This document shows positions 17,059-49,957 of a DNA stretch of 59,179 nt, piece after piece (the first letter of the stretch is position 1; each line of letters begins with the position of its first letter). Made by a program: the position numbers and the translations under genes. A model generated the notes under the pieces. That model was not told where the DNA came from. It made no database searches and saw only the letters and a program-made list of their open reading frames with translations. The stretch comes from Rhodospirillales bacterium (GTDB taxonomy: Bacteria > Pseudomonadota > Alphaproteobacteria > Rhodospirillales > UBA2165), in NCBI GenBank assembly GCA_013204125.1, contig JABMOP010000605.1:1-59179 (forward strand), read 5' to 3'.

Positions 17059-17072
17059 TGATTGGAACCCGA

Positions 17073-18266: not shown

Positions 18267-18326
18267 AAATAAAAACTGTACCTAGGCACATATATAAGTA
18301 TTAGCGGGAAATCTGATAAATTTGAC

Positions 18327-22460: not shown

Positions 22461-22499
22461 GGTTCTGGAGTCCTCGATAAACCGGTTCCCATTCGCAAA

Positions 22500-26030: not shown

Positions 26031-26038
26031 AGCCCTTA

Positions 26039-27796: not shown

Positions 27797-27961
27797 TTAA
27801 CGCCGTCAACAAAGCAACTCGCCTATTTTATCCATCTTGTTCAATTGGTTTGGCCTCCGGTCGAGAATTTTGAAGAATCTCATTATCAGAGCCTCAAACA
27901 AATAGGTGATGCCATTTGGATTAACGTGTGCCGCATGGAGAAGAATGCGGAATGGTTCTGT

Positions 27962-28690: not shown

Positions 28691-28723
28691 CCTATTTTAC
28701 CGATGTCATTCGATTGACGTATC

Positions 28724-29704: not shown

Positions 29705-31635
29705 TTTTCTAATCCTTTTGATAATGTCTTGGTACCGCAATCCAACGAGCCTTCAATCACCTGCCAGAAGCGTAGAGATGCGTCGGGAATTTCTCCAAAC
29801 GCACACAAATATTTCAGGATCGCCTGTCGGTCGGGCCGCCAACCCGCGACCAACGCCGCCACAAGATCGCGTGGTGTATCGAAAGCCTGTAAGCGATCGG
29901 TGTATTTGCGCGCCATCAAAGAAGGGTAATGACGAAGCGCAAAATATGGTTTGCCGACGGCAAATGTCTCTATCAGCGAGCCTGAACTTACGGGACCGAT
30001 CACAAGATCGGCCCATTTTAAATGTTCGGTCAATGGCCCGGATTTATAGATCTCACAATCAAGGTCGTAATAACGAAAAGCCTCTTGGTAATAAGAGAGC
30101 CTCGGGGTGCCCGGGTGGATTTTCAATCGAATGGTTTTAAAACCCAAATTTTTAAGTTCCCTGACAATTTCCACTGAATAGGAAATTTTTGTCGAGTGAA
30201 GGCCGTGTATGTCATAGCCGTCAACCCAGGATCCGAGAATTAGAATTTTTTCAGATTGGCGGGACACCGATGGTCGGTCTGCTTCGGCGGCAACAATATC
30301 AATCCCCGGATAACCGGTGCGAACCGATTTAACGGGTGATCCCGTCGCTCGAAGCCACTCTTCCTGCTGCAGACCCCAGGCGAAAAATTGACTGATCAGG
30401 GGCGGTCCATAAGCATCCCCGGTCCTGATATCCAATTTTTGATCCGACAACAACATGCCGTTAGACAACTCATCCACGGGCACGCCATTCAAGTTGGCGA
30501 TTTCTGCGATTAAGCGGTTGAGCGCATTGCCGGCGTCACCGATGCCCACCCGAGCAAAGCGATGGCGCTGGAAGAACCGCTCATAGCGCTTGACCATCGG
30601 CGCCCGGGATTTCAGCCAGCCCTTGTCAAATACGCGGCCTCGAATGAATTCCCGTCGACGCAGTTCCATTCCCTCCGCCGGCGCGTTCCAGGCTGCTATC
30701 ACCTTGCCCGGGATATCATTGACTTCGTCTTCCTCGGACCGCGTGAGGCGCCCGGAAGGAAGGTTGGTCAAAAGGATACCCCGGCGCCAACATCGCCACA
30801 GAAAACGGAGATTCTTGGGCCATTGTCCGGCTAACAGAACCAAAGTTAATCGATCACTGTCGAAAGCCTTCATGAGGGGCTCGATGACCTGCCAGTTATT
30901 TAGAATGAAAATCTTAGGACGATTTCGCAGGTGCGGCGCTGTGATATAGAAAATGGCGCCGACCGTCAGAGAATATATTTTACGGAGCCAGGGACGAAAT
31001 CCGGATTCTGGCGTATTGATCCCCATATGTAACGTATCGGGCCACAATGGATCAGCCGGGTCCGGTGGGTCGAGGGCATCAATAAATAGTGCGCCATGGC
31101 TCTCGGCAACCTCGGCGACCAAAGTTCTCTTGAGAGCGTCATCGAGAAGTTGATTTTCTGTTTGCACGTCGATTAGTAGGATTTCCTCGGGTTTGAATTG
31201 TTCCGTCAGCCGGTGCAGCGCGCATAAAAGACGCTCGTAGGATTTGGTGAACAAGGCACTGTCCTGAAGGAACTGCTTGCCCATCGAGACCCCGCGAAAT
31301 TCTGTTATATCGTTGCCATTTTCGTCAATCATCCAACGGCTGCTACGTAGATATAATTCCAATGGAGAATCGGTATCGTCTGGCCAATATTCCATCGCTG
31401 TCTCGTAATGAATTCCGTGACCGCCTTTATCCACCCATTTGCGCCAGCTCAACCAATCGGTGCTGATGACCAGAGAATCTGTATCATCGGCATTCAGCGC
31501 AGCAAGATGGCAGCAATGGGAAATAAGAATTAGACGTCGATAGCGCGCCTTAAGTCGATCCGTCGGCTTCAGGACCGAAAGCTCAGTCAACCGATCAATG
31601 GGATTATCCGCCACAACCTTGCTGGCCACGATCAC
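29701..31635 (-). CDS. hypothetical protein (~645 aa), possible GT-B-like glycan transferase or polymerase
   Basis: Long ORF. C-terminal pattern TIRLKIHPGTP...ADLVIGPVSSGSLIETFAVGKPYF. GTG 31635 gives a GTGA overlap; the alternative is ATG 31671. Confidence 0.55.
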   Translation of the reverse strand: MIVASKVVADNPIDRLTELSVLKPTDRLKARYRRLILISHCCHLAALNADDTDSLVISTDWLSWRKWVDKGGHGIHYETAMEYWPDDTDSPLELYLRSSRWMIDENGNDITEFRGVSMGKQFLQDSALFTKSYERLLCALHRLTEQFKPEEILLIDVQTENQLLDDALKRTLVAEVAESHGALFIDALDPPDPADPLWPDTLHMGINTPESGFRPWLRKIYSLTVGAIFYITAPHLRNRPKIFILNNWQVIEPLMKAFDSDRLTLVLLAGQWPKNLRFLWRCWRRGILLTNLPSGRLTRSEEDEVNDIPGKVIAAWNAPAEGMELRRREFIRGRVFDKGWLKSRAPMVKRYERFFQRHRFARVGIGDAGNALNRLIAEIANLNGVPVDELSNGMLLSDQKLDIRTGDAYGPPLISQFFAWGLQQEEWLRATGSPVKSVRTGYPGIDIVAAEADRPSVSRQSEKILILGSWVDGYDIHGLHSTKISYSVEIVRELKNLGFKTIRLKIHPGTPRLSYYQEAFRYYDLDCEIYKSGPLTEHLKWADLVIGPVSSGSLIETFAVGKPYFALRHYPSLMARKYTDRLQAFDTPRDLVAALVAGWRPDRQAILKYLCAFGEIPDASLRFWQVIEGSLDCGTKTLSKGLEK

Positions 31636-32987
31636 GAGGTGATCCCCGTCAAATCTAATTGTCGAATGCATTGATTGCCGTATCGGTCATTGGCCGCAAT
31701 GCCAATACGAACAACATCTTCCAGCGGTAAAGTGTCCCCGTGAAACGCGTAGTACCACTTTCGACCAGAGGGCGAAAAATCGAGATTGTCATGGATGAAC
31801 CGTCTGGATTTGGTCTCGATGGCAAGAAAGGGTTGGGGACCAAACACCTCCCCAGCGGCGCAGACTATTTCAACATACGCGACGTCATTTCCCCCCGCCG
31901 GTCTAAAATGAAGTTCGAGGTCCACGGCAGCAGGTTTATCACCCTCTTTGAATGCGACGGCCTGAAAGGCATTGACGGCTTCGTCGAACATAAATGGTAC
32001 ATCGGGATATTTTTTTGCTGACACCGCGATGAGATCACGCAGATATTCAATCTCGGGCTCCATATCGCGGTAATCATGATTGGCCACACCCACCAAAGTC
32101 GGCAAGCCCTCGGCGGCGCGGGCAAATGCTTTGTCCATTTCTGGTTGGTCGAGATTGGCAATGCGGTTGAAGACATTTAAGGACCGAGCTATCAGCCGCC
32201 GACAATGACCAGGAACTTGATAATTGTCGTGGCTCGGATGATATACGGACCAATCCGCCGGCGCCTGGCGCCAGTCGCCAGAGCGACCGTTGCGGAAATC
32301 CACATGGGCATCAAATTCGGCTGGATCCGCTACTGCCATATTTGACGTATCAAAGGGAATCCACTGTTCAAGAAACCAATTGCTGTCCGGGCGTTCCGCC
32401 TGAAACCCCGCTCGGAAAGCGACGGGAAACCATTGCCGTTCAATAACCTTTCTGCTCAATATCTCAAAAATTTCAGGGCTACGGAAATAGTGGGTCGCAC
32501 AATTATGCGCGTCTCGATAAGTAGACATAGGGTGAAAATGCCAATGTAGGGCATCGCTGCAATCTGATTGTTGCAATAACCGTTGGCGATAATGGTCGAA
32601 CACGGCGTGGAATCCCGTGGCGCGCCGGCGTGGATTGTAATCATAATTCACATGGTCGAGACAAAACCAATTGAAAACCCAGCCACCGCCAAAAGAATCT
32701 GTCATTCGGTTCCGGAATTGCGGATCAGTTACGCGGTCGAGCATTTCATCCACTTTGCTCCAGTCATCCATAAAATTCTGGTTGTGGTCGCCCAATAAAT
32801 TGCGGGCATCTTGCTCGCGCCCGCCGAGGTCTAATTCACCTTGGCGAATGAGCTCCAGATTTATGGAGGTAGGGGCAATGCCAGATATACCAAGGTACTC
32901 TTCAAGACGTTGGAACTTGACTTCGGGCGACTCGTACAGAGGCCCTTCGGTATCCACGCAATGTACAAAATGCACAGTAGCTGACAC
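31632..32987 (-). CDS. hypothetical protein (451 aa), His/Asp-rich, possibly a metal-dependent carbohydrate-modifying enzyme
   Basis: Long ORF in the operon. VHFVHCVDTEGP, HWHFHP, ANHDYRD. No confident family assignment. Confidence 0.55.
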   Translation of the reverse strand: MSATVHFVHCVDTEGPLYESPEVKFQRLEEYLGISGIAPTSINLELIRQGELDLGGREQDARNLLGDHNQNFMDDWSKVDEMLDRVTDPQFRNRMTDSFGGGWVFNWFCLDHVNYDYNPRRRATGFHAVFDHYRQRLLQQSDCSDALHWHFHPMSTYRDAHNCATHYFRSPEIFEILSRKVIERQWFPVAFRAGFQAERPDSNWFLEQWIPFDTSNMAVADPAEFDAHVDFRNGRSGDWRQAPADWSVYHPSHDNYQVPGHCRRLIARSLNVFNRIANLDQPEMDKAFARAAEGLPTLVGVANHDYRDMEPEIEYLRDLIAVSAKKYPDVPFMFDEAVNAFQAVAFKEGDKPAAVDLELHFRPAGGNDVAYVEIVCAAGEVFGPQPFLAIETKSRRFIHDNLDFSPSGRKWYYAFHGDTLPLEDVVRIGIAANDRYGNQCIRQLDLTGITS

Positions 32988-33024: not shown

Positions 33025-33288
33025 TTATTTGCTGGCGGCGATATGATCGGCCAAGTTACCAAGAACCAGCAATTCCTTTTCGATAAGTTCGTCACCGGAA
33101 ATCTTAACGCCGTAATCCTTTTCAATACGAAATAGGATGTTAATTAGGTCCAGTGAATCCAATTCCAGATCATTTTGTAAATTCAGCCCCGTTGCATCGC
33201 CTTCGGGAAAAATTATTTGATCGGTATTGGCGTCTTTTATTAGATTGATCAGTTCAAGAACCAGATCTTTATTATTATCGTTGCTCAT
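33025..33288 (-). CDS. acyl carrier protein
   Basis: 87 aa, acidic. Phosphopantetheine site LELDSLDLINILF. Confidence 0.85.
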   Translation of the reverse strand: MSNDNNKDLVLELINLIKDANTDQIIFPEGDATGLNLQNDLELDSLDLINILFRIEKDYGVKISGDELIEKELLVLGNLADHIAASK

Positions 33289-33290
33289 AA

Positions 33291-34256
33291 TTAATCCTCA
33301 TAATTTGCGGTCAAGATCGTACTTGCCCAAGAAAGCCCAACGCCAAACCCAGATAAAAAAATGTTATTTGGCTTAACGTCTTGAGATAAAATTTGCCGCT
33401 CAAGGGCGATCGGAATCGTCGAAGATGTAGTGTTGCCGGTATCTTTCATATCAATCACCAGTTTATCGTCCGGAATTTTTAGTAGTCCCGCCAAAGACTT
33501 AAGCATGAAACTATTTGCCTGATGAAATAACCAGAGATCAATGTCGCTTTTGGTCTTGCCGTTCCGCTCTAGGCATCTTTCCACGGATTTTGGAACTTCT
33601 TCCATCACCAGAGAAAATATTCCCCGCCCATCCATAAACAACGGTTCTACAATATCGCGGCGCATTGCACTGCCACGCGCAATCAACTCTTCATGGCGGC
33701 TGCCATCCGTCCCAAAATCCAATTGTCCGACGGTGTAAATAGGATGCGGTCCCAGCAGAGTAGCCGTTGCGGCATCGCCAAAAAGGGGCGCCGTGGCCCG
33801 ATCGGCCGGAGACACCAATTTCGAATAGGTTTCGGTGGTAACCAACACCCCCCGCTCTATGCCCTGAGCCTCCATCAAAGCCAGCGCCGTGGCCAGTCCG
33901 TAGACATACCCTGAACAGCCCAAATTAATATCCATCGCAGCACAATTGGATGATAAATTTGTGCGATCCTGAACCAAAGCGGATACGTGTGGTAGGCAAT
34001 AATCAGGCGTTTGGGTTACCACAATGAGTAGTCCTATGGATTTTACATCAACGCCGGTTTGGTCAAATAATTTAAGGCAAGCGGCAACTGCCAAATCCGA
34101 GGAAAATTCGTCGTGCGCCGCAAAATGACGGCTCGTGATGCCGAGTTTATTACGGATAAACGGCTCCTCAAAATCATGCTCGGCAATTACGGTTGTATTG
34201 GAGATGGGGGTGCCGGGAAGATAGAAACTGATTGCTTGAATTCCAACAGCCATCAT
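33291..34256 (-). CDS. 3-oxoacyl-ACP synthase III (KAS III/FabH-like)
   Basis: Cys-His-Asn triad context: NLGCSGYVYGL, LFHQAN, GNTTSSTIPIAL. 321 aa. Confidence 0.85.
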   Translation of the reverse strand: MMAVGIQAISFYLPGTPISNTTVIAEHDFEEPFIRNKLGITSRHFAAHDEFSSDLAVAACLKLFDQTGVDVKSIGLLIVVTQTPDYCLPHVSALVQDRTNLSSNCAAMDINLGCSGYVYGLATALALMEAQGIERGVLVTTETYSKLVSPADRATAPLFGDAATATLLGPHPIYTVGQLDFGTDGSRHEELIARGSAMRRDIVEPLFMDGRGIFSLVMEEVPKSVERCLERNGKTKSDIDLWLFHQANSFMLKSLAGLLKIPDDKLVIDMKDTGNTTSSTIPIALERQILSQDVKPNNIFLSGFGVGLSWASTILTANYED

Positions 34257-34280
34257 CCAAAACCATTCTTCAAAGTTTGG

Positions 34281-34973
34281 CTACGCAAAATTTAAATCCT
34301 GAGTATCTTGCGAAGCGAAACCTATCGTGAAGTCATAAATCGTCGAGTCAAAATCTAAGGATATTTTACTGAGCGTGTGGCGGTAACCCTCCAAATCGCC
34401 CATGCCTATATTCTCAACCTTCATCTGGCCATCCGACAGACTAATAGTTTTCGGAAACACAAAACCTCGACAGGAAACGAACTTGAACTTCACCAAACGT
34501 TGTGGCTCCACGTCGGCTACTGTTTTCAGGTGAAGCTGCTTATTGACTTCGACCACACCCTGGATCAAATCATAGTGAGATAGAATATTTTGAAGTTCGG
34601 CATTTCCTTCAAATGGGCCGCTTAGATGAATTTCTCCAACGAATGTCTGTTCGATCGATTCCCGCCGCTTTACAACCAACTTCGGCTGATCCGCATAAAG
34701 TCCTACTAAATAATTTTTACCATCAATTTCACAAAACATATCGGCGAGCGCATTTGCGCCTTGATGCTTGGCGGCAACCTGCTCAGCATCAAATACTCGG
34801 ATTGTATCATCGTTTATAATTTTTTGACGAATGTTTAAGCGCCTAACTCTCACTTCGGCTAGCCCTTTTCCGTGCATTTTGACAACAGTTTCTCGAAATT
34901 TCTCAGCGAGCGTCGGGCCGTGAATATAGTCTCGGGCACCGTTTAAGAAAAAATCAGATCGGATGGAGTACAT
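34281..34973 (-). CDS. hypothetical protein (230 aa)
   Basis: ORF tightly packed between the MaoC and KAS-III genes. No motif recognised. Confidence 0.55.
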   Translation of the reverse strand: MYSIRSDFFLNGARDYIHGPTLAEKFRETVVKMHGKGLAEVRVRRLNIRQKIINDDTIRVFDAEQVAAKHQGANALADMFCEIDGKNYLVGLYADQPKLVVKRRESIEQTFVGEIHLSGPFEGNAELQNILSHYDLIQGVVEVNKQLHLKTVADVEPQRLVKFKFVSCRGFVFPKTISLSDGQMKVENIGMGDLEGYRHTLSKISLDFDSTIYDFTIGFASQDTQDLNFA

Positions 34974-35029
34974 TTTTTACTTAATCTCGGCTTTAATTAT
35001 CCACATTTTCTGATTTCATGATTGATGCT

Positions 35030-35446
35030 TCACGATGCATGAATTTTGACGGTAAAATCACAATCGACAACTTGCTCGCCATGCTGATTGACGCATATTC
35101 CTTTGACTTTTAAAGCGCACATGGATTCGATACGACCAACTACTTCTACCGATGCCGTAATCTCGTCCCCCATGTAGACCGGCTTCAAAAATCGTGTGGA
35201 TTTTTCGAGCGCGACAACTGTCGTGTTGTCAGAGCCGAAGGTCTGCACCAGCGCACCAGCGAGCCGGCTTTCCTGAACAAAGCCGTTTGAAACCCGCGCC
35301 AGAAATCCAGCCCGGCGACCAACCGCATCATCGAAATGAACTGGATTGTCGTCCCCGCTAATTTCGGCAAAAAGGCGGTTGTCTTCTGCTGTTACGATTT
35401 TCTGAAACGTTCCCTTATAGCCAATTTTGAAGTCGTCATATTTCAC
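35030..35446 (-). CDS. MaoC-like (R)-specific enoyl thioester hydratase/dehydratase (hotdog fold)
   Basis: Hydratase-2 type motif EISGDDNPVHFDDAVGRRAGF. 138 aa. Confidence 0.8.
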   Translation of the reverse strand: MKYDDFKIGYKGTFQKIVTAEDNRLFAEISGDDNPVHFDDAVGRRAGFLARVSNGFVQESRLAGALVQTFGSDNTTVVALEKSTRFLKPVYMGDEITASVEVVGRIESMCALKVKGICVNQHGEQVVDCDFTVKIHAS

Positions 35447-35452
35447 CTAAAT

Positions 35453-36649
35453 TCATACTCCGATTCGAGTGTAGACTCGCTTTTCGCTTTCTATTGCGGC
35501 AAGTTTGAATTGACCGGACGTTGGATCCGGACAACTGTCATTGAGTGACATATTTTCATAATCAATTATTGATTTTTCATACTCTTCAATGGAAATTCTT
35601 CGGCGCGCGCTAAGGGCCTGCTCGACTTTCAATTGATCTGCCATTTCGGCCCAAGTGTCCCTGAATTCTCCACGTAGCAAAGCAGCTCCGCAGCCGGAAC
35701 CATAGGAAAACAAATAGCAGCCATCCAGATCCTCTTTTAATTTCGTAGGATCAGTGGTTTCGGACAAAGAAAATTCAAGCTGGCTGGCCAAAGACAGCCA
35801 CAGGCTGCCAGTGTAGATATTCCCGATGCGCGCGGAAAATCGGCAGGATCGCTCCACCTTGGCGACAAAATGTTGTTTCCAATCGATTTTTTCATCAATC
35901 ATTACGGCGATACGCGCGTGCACTTGCTGCACCAGCTTTGGATAGGGCGTATGGTAAATAAAGGCGGAATTGCCATTAATTTTTTCAAGGGCCCCAAAAC
36001 ACGAATTTGCAGCGTCGATATAGCATTGCGTAGAATACAAGCCGTCAACGATCGGGTAAATTTTATCGAGGGGTTTCCAAAAATCCCAAACTTGTCGGCT
36101 ATAGGTGCTTAATTCCTCGAGTGAAAGCAATCTGGGGTTTCTACTCAATAACATGGCGACGGCGCCGGCGCCTTGCGTTGGCTCACCCAAGCTTTCTTTG
36201 CCGTATCTGGCAATATCAGAAGCGATAACCAGCGCATATTTATTTTTTGGATTATGCAGCCAATCGAGCGCCGCCAAAACGCCATATGTGGCACCGGCAC
36301 AAGCGTGCACAATATCATAGGTCCGGCAGGATGTTGAGATTCCCAGCAAGTCATGCACATGAGCGGCTGTCGGTTTTGATTTGTCCACGGCGCTCTCGGT
36401 GCCGATAACCAACATTCCAACGTCTTCAGGAGACACCCCTGCCTCTTGCAATACTTTAAGGCCTGCGTTGGCGGCCAGCACGACGACGTCTTCGCTTGGC
36501 ATAGCAACCGCCGCGTTGTGGATTCCTATTCCTACCAAATATTTCTTAGCGTCAATATTTCTTGCCGCAGCCAAGTCGGTCAAATCGAGATACTGATCGG
36601 GAAAATAGACGGCAAGATGGTCCAACCCTATTACGTCTGTATTATTCAT
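35453..36649 (-). CDS. hydroxymethylglutaryl-CoA/ACP synthase family enzyme
   Basis: The N-terminus VIGLDHLAVYFPDQYLDLTDLAAARNIDAKKYLVGIGIHNAAV and the active-site Cys region IVHACAGATYGVL fit HMGS (MvaS/PksG-type). 398 aa. Confidence 0.8.
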   Translation of the reverse strand: MNNTDVIGLDHLAVYFPDQYLDLTDLAAARNIDAKKYLVGIGIHNAAVAMPSEDVVVLAANAGLKVLQEAGVSPEDVGMLVIGTESAVDKSKPTAAHVHDLLGISTSCRTYDIVHACAGATYGVLAALDWLHNPKNKYALVIASDIARYGKESLGEPTQGAGAVAMLLSRNPRLLSLEELSTYSRQVWDFWKPLDKIYPIVDGLYSTQCYIDAANSCFGALEKINGNSAFIYHTPYPKLVQQVHARIAVMIDEKIDWKQHFVAKVERSCRFSARIGNIYTGSLWLSLASQLEFSLSETTDPTKLKEDLDGCYLFSYGSGCGAALLRGEFRDTWAEMADQLKVEQALSARRRISIEEYEKSIIDYENMSLNDSCPDPTSGQFKLAAIESEKRVYTRIGV

Positions 36650-36702
36650 GGCGATGTAAAATTATTCATTTAATTGTCGTCGGTCTTTTATGCGGTGTTT
36701 GG

Positions 36703-37500
36703 TCATTCGCGCCAGGGCGACTGCGTGGGCGGGCGATCACACCAGATATATATATCTTCGGTCATTAGATCGGTTACGGCTTTTACAAAATTTCCCATTG
36801 AATAAGCATAAACATGGCCGGCACCAAGGGGATAATTTTTGACCAGATCAGTTTCGTCGAGGTGTTGGAAAATCCATTTTGTGTTGCTTCGCTCAATGCC
36901 GCAATCGCGGTACCACACATGTAAATAGAATGGCTCGACAGTCTTCTCACCGTCCCGCATCACCGGATGCATAAATTCCTTGGTATAGCGGTATGGAACG
37001 GCCATGATTTGCTCGACATGATGGACCGTACTGCAGGTGTGGCGTGGATATAGACCGATACTTATGCTCAATGTGTCCATGCTCGCCATTCTGCCCTCTG
37101 GCGTATTAGGGCCGAAGGCATGCCGCGAAACATTTTGCGTAATCTCCCCAGCCTGGGGGCCAATAGCGGCATAGGATACGAAAGGATGAAAACTGCGCAA
37201 GGCCTCGGGTTGGCGCCGCACGAACTCGGATAATTGTCCAACTTGGTAAACCGGCGTCGTGGCAGGGTCGAACACAATATCCGTATTGCAAAGATTGGTT
37301 GATCCCGTTGGCACCACCAACGTTCCTTCCGGCCCTAACAATTCCAGGAGCGCCTTGAAATGAGCTTCGAGTACCGCCGTTCCGCTCATATCTTCGTAAA
37401 CCATCAGAGGCACGAGATCAGAGGTCACGTAAACAACGCTGGCCTGATCAACGCCCAGTGCTGCATAGGTTTCAAGAATATCGTCGAAAGAATATGCCAT
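36703..37500 (-). CDS. AAC(3)/Antibiotic_NAT-family N-acyltransferase
   Basis: LGVDQASVVYVTSDL, GPEGTLVVPTGS, ALRSFHPFVSYAAIGPQAGEI. ATG 37500 leaves a 2-nt gap to the upstream stop. The ORF-track start at 37539 would overlap. Confidence 0.75.
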   Translation of the reverse strand: MAYSFDDILETYAALGVDQASVVYVTSDLVPLMVYEDMSGTAVLEAHFKALLELLGPEGTLVVPTGSTNLCNTDIVFDPATTPVYQVGQLSEFVRRQPEALRSFHPFVSYAAIGPQAGEITQNVSRHAFGPNTPEGRMASMDTLSISIGLYPRHTCSTVHHVEQIMAVPYRYTKEFMHPVMRDGEKTVEPFYLHVWYRDCGIERSNTKWIFQHLDETDLVKNYPLGAGHVYAYSMGNFVKAVTDLMTEDIYIWCDRPPTQSPWRE

Positions 37501-37502
37501 CT

Positions 37503-38828
37503 TTAACCATCTTGCCAAACCGTGTGGCGCAAAGACCAAGCGGCGTTTTCATATTTCCATAGATGCGGTGATCGAAATCGATCCGCTAGATGAAGTAAAT
37601 AATCCTTGTCCATTATCGGCTGCTCGAACATGGATGAGGCGCCCGGAAATTGTTTTTCCGGAATACTCAGATAGTTCATAAGCTCATCAATGAATCGCTC
37701 GGGAAACTCGCCATCATAGCGGCGTACCAGGGCGATGCCTTCCTCCCTATTTATATCGCCGGAACGAATTTCCTGGGCGGCGTCATAGGTCGCTCGCCCA
37801 ATGCCGAACTTTATGTAAGTCGTGAAGTAGTGGAGATCGTCGATTTTGTCATCGATGCTGTTATATTTACTATATGTGCCTGGCGTTCGCTCCGGCGAAG
37901 CTTCAAATCCCCCATGTTCAACGGCGTAAAAATAACAAGTCTGCGGATGCCATTTAAGATAATAACCTAGATAATGGACTTCCGTTTGCGCCTTTTCCAA
38001 TTCGCTGACACGGGCCGGTATATAGGGTTGTAGTTCATGCCGATCGACATCAAAATATCGAACTAAGTCGCGCAACGATACTCCACTCAAAAATAATTTT
38101 TCCTCATCTTCAACTGAATAGTATTCGGATTCTCGTTGTGATACTTCGTTATCAGCATTTGGATTACCATATTCCGCTTCGTTCTCTCCATAAAACACCA
38201 ACGGAATATCGTGCAGAACCGACATTTTTGGCGCAATGGCTTTTTGGCCAATTATGAACGGCTGAAACGGATGAAACAGGTTTTCGATAGCCAACCGTGT
38301 CAATATTCGATGAACACGTCCGTTTGGCGTTACCAGAGTATTGTCAAATCCAGAATGCAGCCACGCTTCAAAATTACGCCAGCCCCAATCGGTATAAATA
38401 TGCGGCGCCCAAGTAACCGTAAGAGGATGCATTCCGTATTTATATTTCAGAACGTGAGAGGCGTAAAAACTATCCTTACCCCCGGAACCGGGAACGATAC
38501 AGTCATAGCTGCCGTCATTTTTCCGAAATTTATTGCATAGGTCGATCAGCTGCTTTTCGCGCTCATCCCAGTCTATCTCATTTTGTTTTTTATGCGCCGC
38601 TCGACAAGGATCGCAAATGCCATTTTCGTCTATGTAGATTGTCGACTTTTTGCTTTTTATGTCGTGCTGGTACTCGACTGCCGAATTCGGGCGCTGATTT
38701 GAAATAATACAAGATTTGCAAAACCGCACATCTTCCGGCAGGCCATATTTAGCAGGTAAGGGCTTGGTCCCAGCGACGTTGGTAAATGGCGATATGTCCT
38801 CATTTTTAGGTCTGGGATAAGGTTGCAT
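37503..38828 (-). CDS. N-acetyl sugar amidotransferase (PP-loop, WbuX/PseA-like), copy 2
   Basis: CKSCIISNQRP...CDPC, VPGSGGKDS, HPFQPFIIGQK. Start uncertain (ATG 38828, 38903 or 38933). 38828 avoids a 77-nt overlap with the upstream gene. Confidence 0.8.
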   Translation of the reverse strand: MQPYPRPKNEDISPFTNVAGTKPLPAKYGLPEDVRFCKSCIISNQRPNSAVEYQHDIKSKKSTIYIDENGICDPCRAAHKKQNEIDWDEREKQLIDLCNKFRKNDGSYDCIVPGSGGKDSFYASHVLKYKYGMHPLTVTWAPHIYTDWGWRNFEAWLHSGFDNTLVTPNGRVHRILTRLAIENLFHPFQPFIIGQKAIAPKMSVLHDIPLVFYGENEAEYGNPNADNEVSQRESEYYSVEDEEKLFLSGVSLRDLVRYFDVDRHELQPYIPARVSELEKAQTEVHYLGYYLKWHPQTCYFYAVEHGGFEASPERTPGTYSKYNSIDDKIDDLHYFTTYIKFGIGRATYDAAQEIRSGDINREEGIALVRRYDGEFPERFIDELMNYLSIPEKQFPGASSMFEQPIMDKDYLLHLADRFRSPHLWKYENAAWSLRHTVWQDG

Positions 38829-38856
38829 TCGATCTTCGGTCCTCGCGGGTTTGCGG

Positions 38857-39909
38857 TCATGGAAATATTTTTGAAAATTCGTAATTGGCTCGCTGGAAAT
38901 CATCGATCTTCCCCACGTCGATCCAATATTCACGAACCGGAAAAACAGTGGATTTCATCCCAGTTCCTATAATCAGTTTGAACAGGTCCGTCATGTCCAG
39001 ATGTTCGTCTTTTACGATCAATTTGAGGATTTCAGGCTCGAGAACATAGATCCCCGCATTAACAAAAGACGTGTAAACCGGCTTTTCCTCTAGGTCGACA
39101 ACATATTGGTTGTCGATGGTTACCACGCCAAAGGGAACCTGGTAATCGTATTCACGCACGCACATGGTAGCCTGTGCGCCTTGTTCTTTATGAAAATCAA
39201 GAAGGTTATTGAAGTTTACGTTGGTCAACACATCGCCGTTCATTACAATTAACGGCTCGTTCAGATCCTCGACCGGCAGCAAACCGAGTGCGCCGGCAGT
39301 TCCCAGTTGGCTATCTTCCACCAGATATTGAATGTTCACATTCCAGTGGTCACCATTACCAAAATGCTCCTTGATCATTTCGGCTCGATAATTCACGGAT
39401 AAATAGAATTTGTAAAAATTACCATCAATAAAGGTTTTAAGTATGGTCTCGAGAACTGGATATCCGCCGACTTTCAGAAGGGGTTTGGGCCTATTTTCTG
39501 TCATTGGCATAAGTCGATGACCCAACCCGCCCGCCATAAGAATTACGCGATTATTATTTCTATCGTTCGTTTCTAAAAGCTCATCTTCGATGGTGAGTCC
39601 GACAATTTGCGACTGGGCGTTAATAATTGGAAGCTGGCGAACAGAATTCGATCTCATTATTTCGAGCATTCGCTGTTTGCCATCGTCGGGCTTAGCGACC
39701 GTGAATTCACGACGCATTATTTCTATAACTGGGGATTCCAACGAAAGGCTGCGGATTAGGCCGCGGCGAACATCACCATCGGTAACGGTTCCAATGAGTG
39801 CATCATTTTTGTCAACGACCAAGCAAACCTTTTCCACACAGTCGTCGATGATGCGGATAGCATCCGCTATTGTATGATCCGCAGAGACAACGGTCTTCTT
39901 CCATCTCAT
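38857..39909 (-). CDS. tandem-CBS-domain sugar-phosphate nucleotidyltransferase (PtmE-like)
   Basis: N-terminal CBS pair, then VILMAGGLGHRLMPMTENRPKPLLKVGGYPVLE. Confidence 0.8.
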   Translation of the reverse strand: MRWKKTVVSADHTIADAIRIIDDCVEKVCLVVDKNDALIGTVTDGDVRRGLIRSLSLESPVIEIMRREFTVAKPDDGKQRMLEIMRSNSVRQLPIINAQSQIVGLTIEDELLETNDRNNNRVILMAGGLGHRLMPMTENRPKPLLKVGGYPVLETILKTFIDGNFYKFYLSVNYRAEMIKEHFGNGDHWNVNIQYLVEDSQLGTAGALGLLPVEDLNEPLIVMNGDVLTNVNFNNLLDFHKEQGAQATMCVREYDYQVPFGVVTIDNQYVVDLEEKPVYTSFVNAGIYVLEPEILKLIVKDEHLDMTDLFKLIIGTGMKSTVFPVREYWIDVGKIDDFQRANYEFSKIFP

Positions 39910-39911
39910 AA

Positions 39912-40565
39912 TTAAGATTCTTTCCCTATAGGTCCGGCAGGCCGCGCCGGAACACCAAAAACGGTTGCCCGAGCCGGTACGTCCCGGATCACGAGTGCGC
40001 CTGCGCCAATTACTGCACCGTCACCAATGTGAATATTCTGGATGGTTGTACTTGCACATCCGATATGACATCCGTCTCCAATTGTGACGCCGCCTGAAAT
40101 GATTGCTCCTGGCGCAATATGCACATGATCGCCGACATAATTGTCATGGTCGACAACCGCGCCACTGTTGATCAGGCTATTGTCACCGAGACGGGTGCCG
40201 GGTTGGATCACAGCTCCGGCCATAATCTGAACGCCTTCTCCGATGTCGCAGTCGGACGCGATTGACGCGGACGGGTGAACCACGGCTACAAAATCGAAAT
40301 TTCTCATTTTGAAGTGATCGAAAATTCTTTGGCGGTCGCCGGTGTCTTTGGTGGAACCGATCCCGTTGACCAATGAAATATCAGATGGGGCGATTTTATC
40401 TAAATACTCGTCACCACCTATCACCGTAACGCCATGAACCAGAGAGCCATGAAGGCTGGAATTTGCATCCAATAGGCCCGTTATTTCAATGGAATTAAGC
40501 TTAAGGGCTTCGATCAGAACTTTTCCGTGTCCACCCGCACCAATTATAATGACGGGGCGGCTCAC
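39912..40565 (-). CDS. NeuD/PglD-family hexapeptide-repeat amino-sugar N-acetyltransferase
   Basis: VIIIGAGGHGKVLIEAL N-terminal Rossmann-like part, followed by left-handed beta-helix repeats (IGEGVQI, IGDGCHI, IGDGAVI). Confidence 0.85.
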   Translation of the reverse strand: MSRPVIIIGAGGHGKVLIEALKLNSIEITGLLDANSSLHGSLVHGVTVIGGDEYLDKIAPSDISLVNGIGSTKDTGDRQRIFDHFKMRNFDFVAVVHPSASIASDCDIGEGVQIMAGAVIQPGTRLGDNSLINSGAVVDHDNYVGDHVHIAPGAIISGGVTIGDGCHIGCASTTIQNIHIGDGAVIGAGALVIRDVPARATVFGVPARPAGPIGKES

Positions 40566-41635
40566 GATTCAATAATCTCATCGGGGGCATAATTCCGTGA
40601 AGCAACGCGGCCCAGCCAGTCCCAATAGTGCATCGGAGAAATGCCCGTGCCGGGACGTTTGGAAGTCAAATTTTCCGAGGTAAATCGCTCTCCCATTTTT
40701 ATCGCCCGCGCGGCCACTAGGCTACGGCGAGCGGCTTGGGCGTTGCCATTTTCCGACGCCGTCGGTGCCTTAATTCCGTCGCCAAGGGATGAGGCTGCAT
40801 TGCGGATAGCGGAAATCATACCAACAAGTTCCGGCGGCTCTAGCGAAGCCAAATGATCCGGACCAGATAAAGTTCGGTCCATAGTAAAATGTTTTTCTAT
40901 TACTTCGGCGCCGAGGGATACAGCAGCAATCGCAATTTCCGATCCTAGCGTGTGGTCGGAATATCCCACGGGTAGGCCGAATACATCGCGCATATGATCC
41001 ATTGCACGTAAATTAACTTCCTCCATTGGCGCCGGGTATTCGGTGGTGCAGTGGAGCAGCGTAACCTTTTCCAGAAGAACCTTTTTCCCTTCCTCAGAAG
41101 CATAGGCCTCTTCGAAGCCACCCCTATTTGGATCATCACCGCCGTCAATATAGCCGAATGCAAGGACGCCGAGAGCAGCCTCAATATCCGAGAGATCGGC
41201 CATCCCCGTTGATAAAATTATCGGCTTTCCCGTTTCCGCCGCTTCCAATAACAAGTGCCCGTTGGTCAACTCTCCAGATGCAATCTTAATCAATGGAACA
41301 TCAAGATCGTCGGTAAGGAAATGCAGGCTATCGACATCAAATGGAGTAGAGAGAAATGTGATCCGCTTTTTACTGCAGTAATTTGCCAATTCATGAAATG
41401 ACTGGCGATCCAGCTGAAGACGGCGCAATAAATCCAACTGGCTTTCCGCATTTTTCGTATTTCGTGTTTGATATTCCGCTTTCGCCGCACTCGCAGTTAC
41501 AATCTGTTCAGGTTGATAGGTCTGAAACTTTACCGCATCTGCACCGGCGCCAGCGGCGACGTCGATCATTTGAAGTGCAATATCCAAATCACCGCAATGA
41601 TTAACACCCGCTTCAGCAATGATAAAGGGGATCAA
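40562..41635 (-). CDS. neuB: NeuB-family nonulosonic acid synthase (copy 2, LegI-like by context)
   Basis: FIIAEAGVNHCGD, GADAVKFQTY, GYSDHT, C-terminal SAF domain. 4-nt overlaps on both sides. Confidence 0.9.
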   Translation of the reverse strand: MIPFIIAEAGVNHCGDLDIALQMIDVAAGAGADAVKFQTYQPEQIVTASAAKAEYQTRNTKNAESQLDLLRRLQLDRQSFHELANYCSKKRITFLSTPFDVDSLHFLTDDLDVPLIKIASGELTNGHLLLEAAETGKPIILSTGMADLSDIEAALGVLAFGYIDGGDDPNRGGFEEAYASEEGKKVLLEKVTLLHCTTEYPAPMEEVNLRAMDHMRDVFGLPVGYSDHTLGSEIAIAAVSLGAEVIEKHFTMDRTLSGPDHLASLEPPELVGMISAIRNAASSLGDGIKAPTASENGNAQAARRSLVAARAIKMGERFTSENLTSKRPGTGISPMHYWDWLGRVASRNYAPDEIIES

Positions 41636-43964: not shown

Positions 43965-43985
43965 TTAAATTTCCTTGGTCTCTGC

Positions 43986-49912: not shown

Positions 49913-49957
49913 TTAGCAATTTATAAATTCAATTTCAGCTATGAGTATCTAAATTCA

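What the first reader, a model, noticed from the sequence alone, without database searches (positions are those of the whole stretch)
33025..37500. ACP / KAS-III / HMG-synthase / MaoC / AAC(3)-type acyltransferase cassette wired into a nonulosonic-acid operon: candidate undescribed acyl-decoration pathway
Seen in sequence: six co-directional, tightly spaced minus-strand genes lie directly downstream of the legionaminic-type operon and its amidotransferase. They are an AAC(3)/Antibiotic_NAT-family acyltransferase (RSFHPFVSYAAIG) and an HMG-CoA-synthase-family enzyme. Then come a MaoC hotdog dehydratase (SGDDNPVHFD), a 230-aa orphan, a FabH-like KAS III with an intact Cys-His-Asn context, and a stand-alone ACP (LDSLD). 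Established knowledge: HMGS plus a donor ACP plus dehydratases form the beta-branching cassettes of polyketide pathways. MvaS-type HMGS normally travels with HMG-CoA reductase in the mevalonate pathway. This window has no reductase, thiolase or PKS module; the neighbours are amino-sugar genes. Inference: KAS III builds acetoacetyl-ACP, HMGS adds acetate to give an HMG-type thioester, and MaoC may dehydrate it to a methylglutaconyl-type acyl. The AAC(3)-like enzyme would then transfer the acyl group to an amino group of the diamino nonulosonate or its hexose precursor. I am not aware of a described glycan N-acyl substituent made by such a cassette.
Basis: partly seen in the sequence, partly recalled or inferred. 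Interest (0 to 1): 0.8.

Follow-up and report, generated by a model that had tools for sequence, protein, structure and literature searches.

The report
HMG-synthase acyl cassette in sugar operon
An uncultured Rhodospirillales bacterium carries, inside its legionaminic-acid sugar operon, a small acyl-carrier-protein pathway built around a distinct HMG-synthase lineage that most likely makes a branched six-carbon acyl decoration for a surface sugar, a route I could not find described for any glycan in the searchable literature.

Summary
Six co-directional minus-strand genes (33025-37539) encode an AAC(3)-fold acyltransferase, an HMG-synthase, a MaoC hydratase, a 230-aa orphan, a KAS III and an ACP. 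All catalytic motifs are intact. The block follows a Leg-type operon and a WbuX amidotransferase.

New here:
- The HMGS belongs to a separate clade: NJ bootstrap 50/50, about 41% identity to MvaS enzymes. It is much closer to MvaS than to PksG/CurD (247 versus 122/109 bits).
- The clade is found only in MAGs and metagenomes: 4 of 185,579 species genomes.
- In the 11 HMGS-clade loci outside the window (9 independent) a MaoC and a KAS III-like gene lie within about 4 kb. None of 76 MvaS-type loci has either.
- The partner acyltransferase varies: AAC(3)-fold, hexapeptide or GNAT.
- One variant locus replaces the HMGS with a ketoreductase.
- The orphan is a double-hotdog protein from a seven-member family.

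Best reading (0.6): KAS III makes acetoacetyl-ACP, HMGS gives HMG-ACP, MaoC dehydrates it, and the AAC(3)-like enzyme N-acylates an amino sugar. No step is shown biochemically; product and acceptor are inferred. It is a new variant of known KAS III/ACP sugar N-acylation cassettes. Ten literature searches found no description.

The parts
36703..37539 (-). AAC(3)-fold (Antibiotic_NAT) acyltransferase. It is the proposed N-acyltransferase that moves the finished acyl group onto an amino sugar. The probable start is the ATG at 37500 (265 aa).
   Evidence: Pfam PF02522, 116.5 bits. It scores only 40-69 bits against the NCBIfam AAC(3) resistance models, whose cut-offs are 270-675. The best PDB match is AAC(3)-IVa at 56 bits; FrbF and YokD also match. 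Relatives at 47-75% identity sit in cassette loci L001, L088, L089 and L090, and more distant family members in L005-L007, L086 and L087.
35453..36649 (-). HMG-synthase of a distinct, glycan-locus-associated clade. It is proposed to condense acetyl-CoA with acetoacetyl-ACP.
   Evidence: PF01154 and PF08540. TIGR01835 scores 317 bits, below its cut-off of 360. Glu85, Cys117 and His233 are invariant. PDB scores: M. xanthus MvaS 247 bits, E. faecalis MvaS 227, PksG 122, CurD 109. The clade bipartition has 50/50 NJ bootstrap support.
35030..35446 (-). MaoC-type single-hotdog (R)-hydratase/dehydratase. It is proposed to dehydrate the HMG thioester to a 3-methylglutaconyl thioester.
   Evidence: PF01575, 66.8 bits. 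The SGDxNPxH hydratase-2 motif is kept in the window and 10 of the 11 loci compared; L090, the variant without HMGS, reads SGDYNLLH. It is 55-74% identical in the other clade loci (99% in the identical fragment L004) and always lies within about 2 kb of the HMGS.
34281..34973 (-). The 230-aa 'orphan': a double-hotdog fold protein of unknown activity. Candidate roles are thioesterase/editing, second dehydratase/isomerase, or decarboxylase.
   Evidence: No Pfam or NCBIfam hit. The family has seven proteins in 5.8 billion. AF2 model on a 7-sequence alignment: pLDDT 84, pTM 0.82, with a helix-plus-sheet unit repeated twice. Foldseek against the PDB returns PKS/FAS DH domains, FatA acyl-ACP thioesterases, TesB and ACOT7/12, at E 5e-6 to 1e-3 and TMq about 0.29-0.52. 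It lies directly upstream of KAS III-ACP in the window, L001, L088, L089 and L090.
33291..34256 (-). KAS III (FabH-like) condensing enzyme. It is proposed to make acetoacetyl-ACP from acetyl-CoA and malonyl-ACP.
   Evidence: PF08545 and PF08541. PRK09352 scores 252 bits, above its cut-off of 249. The Cys/His/Asn motifs (GCSG, HQA, GNT) align with PDB 3gwa and are kept in all loci.
33025..33288 (-). Stand-alone acyl carrier protein, 2 nt downstream of KAS III.
   Evidence: PF00550, 28.7 bits against a cut-off of 20.8. The DSL serine motif (LELDSLDL) is present. A small ACP ORF, annotated PP-binding or an unannotated 76-84 aa ORF in the same position, lies in the cassette in L001, L003, L085-L090 and the P0003 contig.
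37503..38933 (-). WbuX-family N-acetyl-sugar amidotransferase (acetamidino formation), immediately upstream of the acyltransferase. Context gene.
   Evidence: TIGR03573, 373 bits against a cut-off of 203. It is 74% identical and in the same position in L001/L002. A 51%-identical paralogue lies at 18327-19547.
38857..45245 (-). Legionaminic-type nonulosonate operon: 4,6-dehydratase, LegC-family aminotransferase, NeuC, NeuB, NeuD/PglD N-acetyltransferase and a CBS-nucleotidyltransferase. Context; it is the presumed supplier of the amino-sugar acceptor.
   Evidence: Pfam. NCBIfam: TIGR04181 LegC family 385 bits (cut-off 420), NeuC 439 (cut-off 236), NeuB 466 (cut-off 400), NeuD/PglB/VioB 234 (cut-off 161).
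23207..32987 (-). Co-directional downstream genes. In order: 451-aa and 656-aa unknowns, radical-SAM/SPASM, CMP-nonulosonate synthetase 1, 585-aa unknown, second NeuC, 2-hydroxyacid dehydrogenase, second cytidylyltransferase. Probably the same transcription unit; their roles with respect to the acyl group are unknown.
   Evidence: The same order occurs in L001, from the 451-aa ORF to the second NeuC where the contig ends, at 56-76% identity. No intergenic terminator-like site was found, but the scan was at chance level.

Best explanation
The six genes are a self-contained, ACP-dependent acyl-building module embedded in a legionaminic-type sugar operon. The proposed steps are below. All are inferred from family chemistry and gene context; none is shown biochemically.

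1. The stand-alone ACP is phosphopantetheinylated and malonylated by housekeeping enzymes encoded elsewhere.
2. The KAS III condenses acetyl-CoA with malonyl-ACP to give acetoacetyl-ACP.
3. The MvaS-derived HMG-synthase adds a second acetyl unit to the C3 ketone, giving 3-hydroxy-3-methylglutaryl-ACP.
4. The MaoC hydratase, working in reverse, removes water to give 3-methylglutaconyl-ACP.
5. The double-hotdog protein performs an accessory step. This could be editing or thioesterase activity, double-bond isomerisation or decarboxylation. It is present in only a subset of loci.
6. The AAC(3)-fold enzyme transfers the branched, carboxyl-bearing C6 acyl group (or a C5 derivative) to a free amino group of a nucleotide-linked 4-amino-4,6-dideoxy-hexosamine or of the nonulosonate itself. 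The product would be a Leg-type sugar carrying an HMG-derived N-acyl group instead of one acetyl.

The module is portable. Other bacteria combine the same HMGS-MaoC-KAS III-ACP core with a hexapeptide or GNAT acyltransferase and with other amino-sugar pathways.
For: Shown by computation:
- All domains and catalytic motifs are intact. HMGS Glu/Cys/His and KAS III Cys/His/Asn are kept in every locus compared, and the MaoC SGDxNPxH motif in the window and 10 of the 11 loci compared.
- The genes are 2-56 nt apart and follow the WbuX gene by 2 nt.
- The entire operon is syntenic in L001/L002.
- The HMGS forms its own clade: 50/50 bootstrap, about 41% identity to MvaS-type enzymes against a 55% median within the clade.
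- In the 11 clade loci outside the window (9 independent: L004 is a fragment of the window and L003/L008 are one contig), MaoC lies within about 2 kb and a KAS III-like gene within about 4 kb. None of 76 loci with MvaS-type HMGS has either.
- The loci are glycan loci, with DegT aminotransferases, NeuB/NeuC, CMP-synthetases, glycosyltransferases, Wzy and flippases.
- An N-acyltransferase of one of three folds lies next to the core: Antibiotic_NAT in the window, L001/2, L005-7 and L086-90; Hexapep in L003/8 and L085; GNAT in the P0003 contig.
- L090 carries the same MaoC, double-hotdog, KAS III, ACP and Antibiotic_NAT set with an SDR ketoreductase where the HMGS would be. This places the HMGS at the beta-keto-processing step.

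From established knowledge (my own, not tested here): MaoC-family enzymes (itaconyl-CoA and mesaconyl-CoA hydratases) act on branched dicarboxylic thioesters with tertiary alcohols. FrbF, another Antibiotic_NAT member, acetylates a CMP-linked amine.

Published analogue: the P. syringae viosamine island uses vioS (KAS III), acp, vioR (ketoreductase) and vioB (acyltransferase) to put 3-hydroxybutyryl on dTDP-viosamine (PMC3927599).
Against: - There is no biochemical or glycan-structure evidence. All members come from uncultured organisms.
- By similarity the HMGS is of the CoA-using MvaS type rather than the ACP-using PksG/CurD type. The intermediates could therefore be CoA esters, and the ACP could serve another step.
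- The standard Leg pathway already has its own N-acetyltransferase (39912-40565), and no deacetylase is evident in the operon. The free amine that would accept the acyl group is therefore not identified.
- Hotdog enzymes can be thioesterases, so MaoC or the 230-aa protein might release a free acid.
- Operon continuity is inferred from spacing only. The promoter/terminator scan was at chance level.
- No PPTase or malonyl transferase is encoded locally.
Confidence: 0.6

Rival explanations
1. Same module, different end product. After dehydration the C6 unit is decarboxylated, possibly by the 230-aa double-hotdog protein, to a C5 3-methylcrotonyl or 3-methylbut-3-enoyl thioester. This mirrors polyketide beta-branching and the myxobacterial MvaS-to-isovaleryl-CoA route. 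The sugar would then carry a neutral, isoprenoid-like C5 N-acyl group.
For: The best PDB relative of the HMGS is the M. xanthus MvaS. From my own knowledge, that enzyme feeds a dehydration/decarboxylation route to isovaleryl-CoA. An extra hotdog-fold enzyme sits between MaoC and KAS III.
Against: The double-hotdog gene is missing from most clade loci (L003, L005-L007, L085-L087), so it cannot be a core step. It also occurs in L090, which has no HMGS and so no carboxyl to remove. I know of no decarboxylase with this fold. No crotonase ECH2-type or AibA/B-type gene is present.
Confidence: 0.12
2. The order of events differs. The acyltransferase first moves acetoacetyl from ACP to the sugar amine, as proposed for VioB in the viosamine island. 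The HMGS then elaborates the N-acetoacetyl sugar.
For: The published viosamine model has dTDP-N-acetoacetylviosamine as the substrate of the ketoreductase (PMC3927599). HMGS chemistry attacks the C3 ketone and does not itself need the acceptor's thioester (family knowledge).
Against: MaoC-type dehydration needs the acidifying thioester. An amide-linked HMG would be a poor substrate, yet MaoC is the partner most tightly conserved with the HMGS (55-74% identity, adjacent in every locus). The HMGS is MvaS-like, with a pantetheine-type acceptor expected.
Confidence: 0.1
3. The cassette does not decorate the nonulosonate. It makes a separate small molecule, or acylates another part of the envelope product made by this 35-kb locus. 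That locus also encodes B12-radical-SAM enzymes, methyltransferases, MBOAT acyltransferases and an ABC exporter. Alternatively the acyl group is O-linked.
For: In L085 the cassette lies in a glycosyltransferase/Wzy cluster with no nonulosonate or aminotransferase gene within 10 kb. In L003/L008 it sits next to integrase genes with only a hexapeptide transferase. The window locus has many further tailoring genes of unknown role.
Against: In the window and in L001/L002 the cassette is wedged between the Leg genes with WbuX and the CMP-synthetase with the second NeuC, with minimal gaps. NeuB is within 6 kb in L007 and L087 and within about 9 kb on the P0003 contig. Characterised members of the Antibiotic_NAT fold are amine N-acetyltransferases.
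Confidence: 0.13
4. It is ordinary primary metabolism. The HMGS is a housekeeping MvaS serving mevalonate/isoprenoid or leucine-type metabolism, with KAS III acting like NphT7 as an acetoacetyl-CoA synthase. On this view the gene neighbourhood is coincidental.
For: The HMGS is closer to MvaS than to ACP-dependent HMGS enzymes. Pairing a KAS III-like acetoacetyl-CoA synthase with an HMGS is known from Streptomyces mevalonate clusters (own knowledge). The rest of the genome could not be inspected.
Against: The HMGS scores below the MvaS equivalog cut-off (317 against 360) and falls in a separate clade with 50/50 support. Across the 11 clade loci outside the window, MaoC and KAS III are always adjacent; across 76 MvaS-type loci, never. 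A dedicated ACP and an N-acyltransferase are always beside it. No reductase or kinase of the mevalonate pathway is in the window. A Wenzhouxiangella MvaS, by contrast, sits among housekeeping genes.
Confidence: 0.03

Closest known systems
Viosamine island of Pseudomonas syringae pv. tabaci (vioS KAS III, acp, vioR 3-oxoacyl-ACP reductase, vioB N-acyltransferase) and the homologous orfB-orfD genes of the P. aeruginosa PAK flagellin glycosylation island (PMC3927599)
   Same: A dedicated KAS III plus a stand-alone ACP plus one beta-keto-processing enzyme plus an N-acyltransferase. All are encoded inside a sugar-nucleotide pathway and put a short C4-derived acyl group on a 4-amino-4,6-dideoxy sugar. 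The variant locus L090 (KR in place of HMGS) bridges the two designs.
   Different: The ketoreductase is replaced by an HMG-synthase and a MaoC dehydratase. The predicted acyl group is therefore branched, C6 and carboxylated rather than 3-hydroxybutyryl. The transferase has the AAC(3) fold rather than the left-handed beta-helix. The sugar pathway is a nonulosonate (Leg-type) pathway.
Polyketide beta-branching HMGS cassettes (PksG, CurD, with donor ACP, ECH1 and ECH2)
   Same: An HMG-synthase acting in a non-isoprenoid context together with an ACP and a dehydratase, to add a methyl-bearing branch to a beta-keto thioester.
   Different: The HMGS is not of that clade: 122 and 109 bits to PksG and CurD, against 247 to MvaS. 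The dehydratase is a hotdog MaoC, not a crotonase ECH1. There is no ECH2, no decarboxylating KS and no PKS assembly line. The acceptor would be free acetoacetyl-ACP.
Bacterial MvaS HMG-CoA synthases (Enterococcus, Staphylococcus, Myxococcus xanthus), including the M. xanthus use of MvaS for isovaleryl-CoA synthesis
   Same: The closest sequence relatives, at 36-47% identity. The catalytic Glu-Cys-His is the same. The myxobacterial route also follows HMG formation with dehydration to a 3-methylglutaconyl thioester for a non-isoprenoid purpose (own knowledge).
   Different: It is a separate clade, scoring below the equivalog cut-off. It always sits next to MaoC, KAS III, an ACP and an acyltransferase in glycan loci. 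No reductase is nearby. The carrier is probably ACP, not CoA.
AAC(3) aminoglycoside N-acetyltransferases and FrbF/YokD (Pfam Antibiotic_NAT)
   Same: Same fold family (116 bits to PF02522). The characterised members acylate amines of aminoglycosides or, for FrbF, of a CMP-linked amine (FrbF substrate from own knowledge).
   Different: It scores far below every AAC(3) resistance model (at most 69 bits against cut-offs of 270 or more). The context predicts a sugar-nucleotide acceptor and a larger acyl donor.
Branched C6 N-acyl groups already known from O-antigens, e.g. (R,R)-3-hydroxy-3-methyl-5-oxoprolyl on Fuc3N of Vibrio cholerae O5 (table in PMC10609480)
   Same: The carbon skeleton of 3-hydroxy-3-methyl-5-oxoproline is that of 2-amino-HMG cyclised to a lactam. 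An HMG-type thioester is therefore a plausible precursor (my inference).
   Different: No gene-to-structure link could be tested here. No amination or cyclisation enzyme has been assigned. No Vibrio or Plesiomonas sequence appeared among the clade members.

Membership tests
HMG-CoA synthase family (Pfam HMG_CoA_synt_N/C) | Both Pfam domains score above their gathering scores | tested here: met
   94.2 and 85.4 bits against cut-offs of 25
HMG-CoA synthase family (Pfam HMG_CoA_synt_N/C) | Catalytic Glu / Cys / His triad | tested here: met
   E85, C117 and H233 are invariant in 23 clade sequences and in 11 loci
Bacterial MvaS (NCBIfam TIGR01835 equivalog, mevalonate pathway) | Score above the equivalog cut-off | tested here: not met
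   317.1 bits against a cut-off of 360.35. It also falls in a separate clade with 50/50 bootstrap support.
Bacterial MvaS (NCBIfam TIGR01835 equivalog, mevalonate pathway) | Works with HMG-CoA reductase and mevalonate kinases in the same genome | not testable with these tools
   None is present in the 59-kb window. The rest of the MAG was not available. The crude HMGR-motif control was uninformative.
Polyketide beta-branching HMGS cassette (PksG/CurD type) | HMGS of the ACP-dependent PksG/CurD clade | tested here: not met
   122 bits to PksG and 109 to CurD, against 247 to M. xanthus MvaS
Polyketide beta-branching HMGS cassette (PksG/CurD type) | Crotonase-fold ECH1/ECH2, a decarboxylating KS and an adjacent PKS | tested here: not met
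   No ECH, KS or PKS domain in the window. The dehydratase is a MaoC hotdog.
Polyketide beta-branching HMGS cassette (PksG/CurD type) | Stand-alone ACP in the cassette | tested here: met
   PP-binding at 28.7 bits with the DSL serine. Its role as donor or acceptor carrier was not tested.
KAS III (FabH) condensing enzymes | ACP_syn_III N and C domains, Cys-His-Asn triad, subfamily cut-off | tested here: met
   PRK09352 at 252.3 bits against 249. The triad aligns with PDB 3gwa and is conserved in all 12 sequences compared (window plus 11 loci). Substrate choice was not tested.
MaoC / (R)-specific enoyl hydratase 2 | MaoC domain with the hydratase-2 motif (catalytic Asp and His) | tested here: met
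   PF01575 at 66.8 bits. The SGDDNPVH motif is conserved in the window and 10 of the 11 loci compared; L090 reads SGDYNLLH.
AAC(3) aminoglycoside-resistance acetyltransferases | Score above the NCBIfam AAC(3) equivalog or subfamily cut-offs | tested here: not met
   Best score 68.9 bits against a cut-off of 270. It shares only the fold family (PF02522, 116.5 bits).
KAS III/ACP sugar N-acylation cassettes (viosamine-island type) | KAS III, ACP and an N-acyltransferase encoded inside an amino-sugar pathway | tested here: met
   compared with PMC3927599
KAS III/ACP sugar N-acylation cassettes (viosamine-island type) | A 3-oxoacyl-ACP reductase as the beta-keto-processing enzyme | tested here: not met
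   There is no SDR in the cassette; HMGS and MaoC take its place. An SDR is present in the variant locus L090.
Legionaminic-acid pathway (LegB/C/H/G/I with a PtmE-type nucleotidyltransferase) | LegC-family aminotransferase, hydrolysing NeuC epimerase, NeuB-type synthase, NeuD/PglD N-acetyltransferase, CBS-nucleotidyltransferase | tested here: inconclusive
   NeuC 439, NeuB 466 and NeuD 234 bits are above their cut-offs. LegC family scores 385 bits, below 420. The dehydratase is assigned at Pfam level only. Stereochemistry (Leg versus an epimer) cannot be read from sequence.

The most novel reading that the evidence does not exclude
This is an unrecognised, portable 'glycan beta-branching' module. 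A dedicated offshoot of MvaS-type HMG-synthases works on ACP-tethered acetoacetate together with a MaoC dehydratase. It installs a branched, carboxyl-bearing C6 acyl group (HMG or 3-methylglutaconyl) on nonulosonic acids and other amino sugars of uncultured bacteria. It could also be the long-missing biosynthetic origin of the 3-hydroxy-3-methyl-5-oxoprolyl class of O-antigen N-acyl groups.
Probability: 0.4. Interest if true: 0.75.

Novelty: new variant of a known kind. Interest (0 to 1): 0.62.

Why it matters
N-acyl groups on nonulosonic acids and other amino sugars determine charge, antigenicity, and phage and lectin recognition of bacterial surfaces. The routes I know of use acetyl-CoA, amino acids, or a KAS III/ketoreductase pair that gives 3-hydroxybutyryl.

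An HMG-synthase-based route would add a branched dicarboxylic C6 acyl group and a second negative charge to the repertoire. It would be a third physiological use of HMG-synthases, beside isoprenoid synthesis and polyketide branching. It would also give a concrete gene set to test against O-antigens whose branched C6 N-acyl groups have, to my knowledge, no known biosynthesis.

The core is four genes plus an interchangeable transferase, so it is directly testable by heterologous reconstitution. If it works it could serve as a glyco-engineering tool.

Tried and rejected
- The first genome-collection scan with peptide patterns from the single HMGS found no relative. It was repeated with a clade alignment.
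- A word-indexed homologue search for the 230-aa protein alone returned only the protein itself. It needed a three-sequence profile.
- The single-sequence AF2 model of the 451-aa downstream protein was unusable (pLDDT 41). Its 751 representative homologues carry no Pfam domain apart from occasional fused methyltransferase or formyltransferase domains. Its function stays unknown.
- Pfam at E<=10 gave nothing credible for the 230-, 451-, 656- and 585-aa proteins.
- The control 'MvaS-type genes sit next to HMG-CoA reductase' was not borne out. A DAMG[AMQ]N motif scan hit 1 of 76 MvaS loci and none of the 15 clade sequences scanned (window plus 14 loci). A Wenzhouxiangella MvaS lies among housekeeping genes. 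Lack of an adjacent reductase is therefore not used as an argument.
- Promoter and terminator scans were at the level of shuffled sequence. They neither support nor contradict a single transcript.
- Rfam and tRNA scans of the window were empty.
- Ten literature searches combining HMG-synthase, methylglutaryl or methylglutaconyl terms with legionaminic, pseudaminic, nonulosonic, O-antigen or gene-cluster terms returned nothing relevant. The library does not cover most subscription journals.
- I rejected filing the HMGS as PksG/CurD-type, and the acyltransferase as an aminoglycoside-resistance gene.

Full report
**1. Observation**

The window is a 59,179-bp contig. The same sequence is deposited as a 'Rhodospirillales bacterium' MAG, where the 230-aa protein is locus tag HQ503_19000. 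An identical 8.9-kb fragment occurs in JGI metagenome 3300032524.

Between 33025 and 37539 the minus strand carries six tightly spaced ORFs.

| Coordinates | Assignment | Evidence |
|---|---|---|
| 36703-37539 | Antibiotic_NAT | 116.5 bits |
| 35453-36649 | HMG_CoA_synt_N/C | 94 and 85 bits; TIGR01835 317 bits |
| 35030-35446 | MaoC_dehydratas | 66.8 bits |
| 34281-34973 | no hit | |
| 33291-34256 | ACP_syn_III/_C | PRK09352 252 bits, cut-off 249 |
| 33025-33288 | PP-binding | 28.7 bits |

Using the start called in the identical fragment L004, the acyltransferase begins at ATG 37500, 2 nt after the stop of the upstream gene. The other gaps are 2-56 nt.

Upstream lies a WbuX N-acetyl-sugar amidotransferase (373 bits, cut-off 203). 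Before it is a Leg-type set:
- a Polysacc_synt_2 dehydratase;
- a LegC-family aminotransferase (385 bits, just under the 420 cut-off);
- NeuC (439 bits) and NeuB (466 bits);
- a NeuD/PglD acetyltransferase (234 bits);
- a CBS-nucleotidyltransferase.

Downstream, still co-directional, come two unknown proteins, a radical-SAM/SPASM enzyme and a CMP-nonulosonate synthetase. After these come another unknown, a second NeuC, a 2-hydroxyacid dehydrogenase, a second cytidylyltransferase and more tailoring genes. No HMG-CoA reductase, thiolase or PKS domain occurs in any main ORF of the window that I scanned.

**2. What the HMG-synthase is**

The catalytic Glu85, Cys117 and His233 are invariant in 23 relatives and in every related locus.

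Against solved structures it scores as follows:

| Structure | Bits |
|---|---|
| Myxococcus xanthus MvaS | 247 |
| Enterococcus MvaS | 227 |
| Staphylococcus MvaS | 217 |
| PksG | 122 |
| CurD | 109 |

It is therefore MvaS-like, not a member of the polyketide beta-branching HMGS clade. It is not an ordinary MvaS either.
- It misses the TIGR01835 equivalog cut-off (317 against 360).
- The large protein collection shows a sharp break. About 70 cluster representatives have 47-66% identity. Below that lie the MvaS-type proteins of Wenzhouxiangella, Myxococcota, Enterococcus and others, at 45% or less.
- A neighbour-joining analysis of 112 full-length sequences recovers that bipartition in 50 of 50 bootstrap replicates. 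Median identity is 55% within the clade and 41% across it.
- In one genome per species for 185,579 species, only four loci belong to the clade. All are MAGs: Rhodospirillaceae twice, an unclassified proteobacterium, and Coxiellaceae.
- All named cluster members are MAG or metagenome proteins.

**3. Context is the decisive evidence**

I fetched 90 loci and compared all window proteins with them. The 11 loci outside the window that carry a clade HMGS are L001-L008 and L085-L088, at 49-100% identity. They represent nine independent sequences, because L004 is a fragment of the window contig and L003 and L008 are the same contig. In every one a MaoC gene (55-99% identity) lies within about 2 kb and a KAS III-like gene within about 4 kb. 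None of the 76 loci with MvaS-type HMGS (36-43% identity) has either. L089, found later through the 230-aa protein, shows the same arrangement.

Gene tables of the contigs add three points.
- **Carrier.** A small ACP ORF lies in the cassette in L001, L003, L085-L090 and the P0003 contig.
- **Neighbourhood.** The surrounding genes are glycan genes: DegT aminotransferases, 4,6-dehydratases, NeuB, NeuC, cytidylyltransferases, glycosyltransferases, Wzy and flippases.
- **Transferase.** An acyltransferase lies next to the core, but its fold differs between loci.

| Acyltransferase fold | Loci |
|---|---|
| Antibiotic_NAT | window, L001/L002, L005-L007, L086-L090 |
| Hexapeptide | L003/L008, L085 |
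| GNAT | JGI contig of P0003 |

The complete window operon, from the dehydratase to the second NeuC, is syntenic at 45-76% amino-acid identity in two overlapping contigs of another metagenome (L001/L002).

One locus is especially informative. L090 has Antibiotic_NAT, a methyltransferase, an SDR ketoreductase, MaoC, the 230-aa family protein, KAS III and an ACP, but no HMGS. The position occupied by the HMGS in the window is thus the beta-keto-processing position of a minimal KS-KR-DH system.

**4. The orphan**

The 230-aa protein belongs to a family of only seven proteins in 5.8 billion. In all five loci where it occurs it lies directly upstream of KAS III-ACP.

An AlphaFold2 model on the seven-sequence alignment is confident (pLDDT 84, pTM 0.82). 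It shows a long helix wrapped by a sheet, twice. Foldseek against the PDB returns double-hotdog proteins. These include PKS and FAS dehydratase domains, plant FatA and bacterial acyl-ACP thioesterases, TesB and ACOT7/12, at E 5e-6 to 1e-3 and TM about 0.29-0.52.

The fold fits thioester chemistry but does not distinguish dehydratase, isomerase or thioesterase. The PKS-DH His motif is not conserved. Invariant polar residues cluster on the second central helix: Q138, E142, N144 and K145. Most clade loci lack the protein and the HMGS-free L090 has it, so it is an accessory to the KAS III/ACP/AAC(3)-like set, not to the HMGS.

**5. Mechanism**

What is shown: domain membership, intact active sites, gene order, and the strict co-occurrence pattern.

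What is inferred from family chemistry:
1. KAS III makes acetoacetyl-ACP.
2. The HMGS adds acetate to give HMG-ACP.
3. MaoC dehydrates it to 3-methylglutaconyl-ACP.
4. The AAC(3)-fold enzyme transfers the acyl group to an amine of a Leg-pathway intermediate.

MaoC-family enzymes are known to handle branched dicarboxylic thioesters with tertiary alcohols (itaconyl-CoA and mesaconyl-CoA hydratases; own knowledge). NCBIfam gives a weak RipB/Ich hit (5e-5).

The nearest described system is the viosamine island of P. syringae. There vioS (KAS III), acp, vioR (ketoreductase) and vioB (acyltransferase) give N-(3-hydroxybutyryl)viosamine, supported by mutant glycan masses (PMC3927599).

Several points remain open.
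- **CoA or ACP.** The MvaS-like nature of the HMGS argues for CoA. The invariable ACP and the thioester-dependent MaoC argue for ACP.
- **Which amine.** The Leg set has its own NeuD/PglD acetyltransferase. I speculate that the second NeuC/NeuB/cytidylyltransferase set (31-37% identical paralogues) handles the differently acylated intermediate.
- **Further processing.** The C6 unit may be modified again after dehydration.

**6. Rivals**

Rival readings and my confidence in each:
- Decarboxylation to a C5 acyl group: 0.12.
- Transfer of acetoacetyl first, then elaboration on the sugar: 0.10.
- A target other than the nonulosonate: 0.13. This draws support from L085, where no nonulosonate or aminotransferase gene lies within 10 kb.
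- Housekeeping mevalonate use: 0.03. This is contradicted by the clade split and the context statistics.

**7. Known or new**

Ten full-text searches found no paper describing an HMG-synthase in a glycan locus. They combined HMG-synthase, methylglutaryl or methylglutaconyl terms with legionaminic, pseudaminic, nonulosonic, O-antigen or gene-cluster terms. Most subscription-journal papers are not covered.

Branched C6 N-acyl groups do exist in O-antigens. One is (R,R)-3-hydroxy-3-methyl-5-oxoprolyl on Fuc3N of V. cholerae O5 (table in PMC10609480). Its skeleton equals cyclised 2-amino-HMG. That is a lead, not a tested link.

I classify the finding as a new variant of a known kind. The known kind is the KAS III/ACP-based sugar N-acylation cassette. 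The variant is the recruitment of a dedicated MvaS-derived HMGS clade with a MaoC dehydratase.

**8. Verdict**

| Item | Verdict |
|---|---|
| Observation | confirmed |
| Best explanation | confidence 0.6 |
| Interest | 0.62 |

The architecture and glycan linkage are supported and extended. The beta-branching family analogy is corrected. The chemistry is unproven. The gene set is rare and coherent, appears undescribed, and is directly testable by reconstitution. It comes from uncultured bacteria, and its product is still hypothetical.

Noticed in passing
window 14593-28690 (minus strand), compared with 37503-45245: The locus holds two paralogous nonulosonate sets: NeuB1/NeuB2 37% identical, NeuC1/NeuC2 35%, and two cytidylyltransferases 31%. 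It also has two WbuX amidotransferases (51% identical) plus HisH/HisF-like partners. This suggests two different CMP-nonulosonates, or two acylation states, made from one precursor.
   Followed up: partly
window 31632-32987 (-): A 451-aa protein lies directly after the ACP. It has 751 representative homologues in the 1.84-billion-protein library, none with a Pfam domain. Some are fused to methyltransferase or formyltransferase-N domains. Single-sequence AF2 failed (pLDDT 41). It is 71% identical and in the same position in L001.
   Followed up: partly
window 29701-31671 (-) and 26039-27796 (-): Two large soluble proteins (656 and 585 aa) have no family hit at all. They are conserved at 56-57% identity and in the same order in L001. 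They may be the transferases for the modified sugar.
   Followed up: no
window 7440-8477 (+): A 345-aa protein with an MptE-like (DUF115) domain, the domain found in Maf flagellin nonulosonate transferases. No flagellar genes are in the window.
   Followed up: no
L090 5902-9896: A sister cassette without HMGS: Antibiotic_NAT, methyltransferase, SDR ketoreductase, MaoC, 230-aa-family double hotdog, KAS III, ACP. This looks like a minimal KS-KR-DH system, probably giving a crotonyl- or hydroxybutyryl-type acyl group.
   Followed up: partly
L086 12355-13695, L087 12634-13950, L088 1581-2882, L089 11590-12885, L090 3438-4769: A DUF4910/DUF2172/HTH_47 (M28-aminopeptidase-like) protein lies within a few kb of the Antibiotic_NAT gene in five cassette loci, directly adjacent in L086, L087 and L090. 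It is absent from the window. Its role is unknown.
   Followed up: no
L003/L008 7040-12956: Here the HMGS-MaoC-KAS III-ACP-hexapeptide transferase block sits alone next to phage-integrase genes in a Rhodospirillaceae MAG. This suggests the module moves as a unit.
   Followed up: no
window 8555-10018 (+), 20295-22460 (-), 28724-29740 (-): Two B12-binding radical-SAM enzymes and one radical-SAM/SPASM enzyme lie in the same glycan locus. B12-rSAM genes also flank the cassette in L088 and L089. This hints at C-methylation or other radical tailoring of the sugar or its acyl group.
   Followed up: no
window 47358-58884 (+) and the GC profile: G+C rises from about 0.45-0.50 across the glycan locus to 0.55-0.58 beyond about 50 kb. 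A separate plus-strand cluster spans that shift. It holds an AlgX-like SGNH protein with an MBOAT, methyltransferases, an SDR, a dehydroquinate-synthase-like cyclase, a GNAT, a polysaccharide deacetylase and a heparinase II/III-like protein. The cassette itself is the lowest-GC part (0.447 at 33-35 kb).
   Followed up: no
window 10135-12713 (-): An MBOAT acyltransferase is followed by a 361-aa protein with weak DUF1574/GDSL similarity and an N-terminal hydrophobic segment. Beside them lies a fused ABC exporter (12759-14576). This suggests the product is exported and O-acylated outside the cytoplasm.
   Followed up: no
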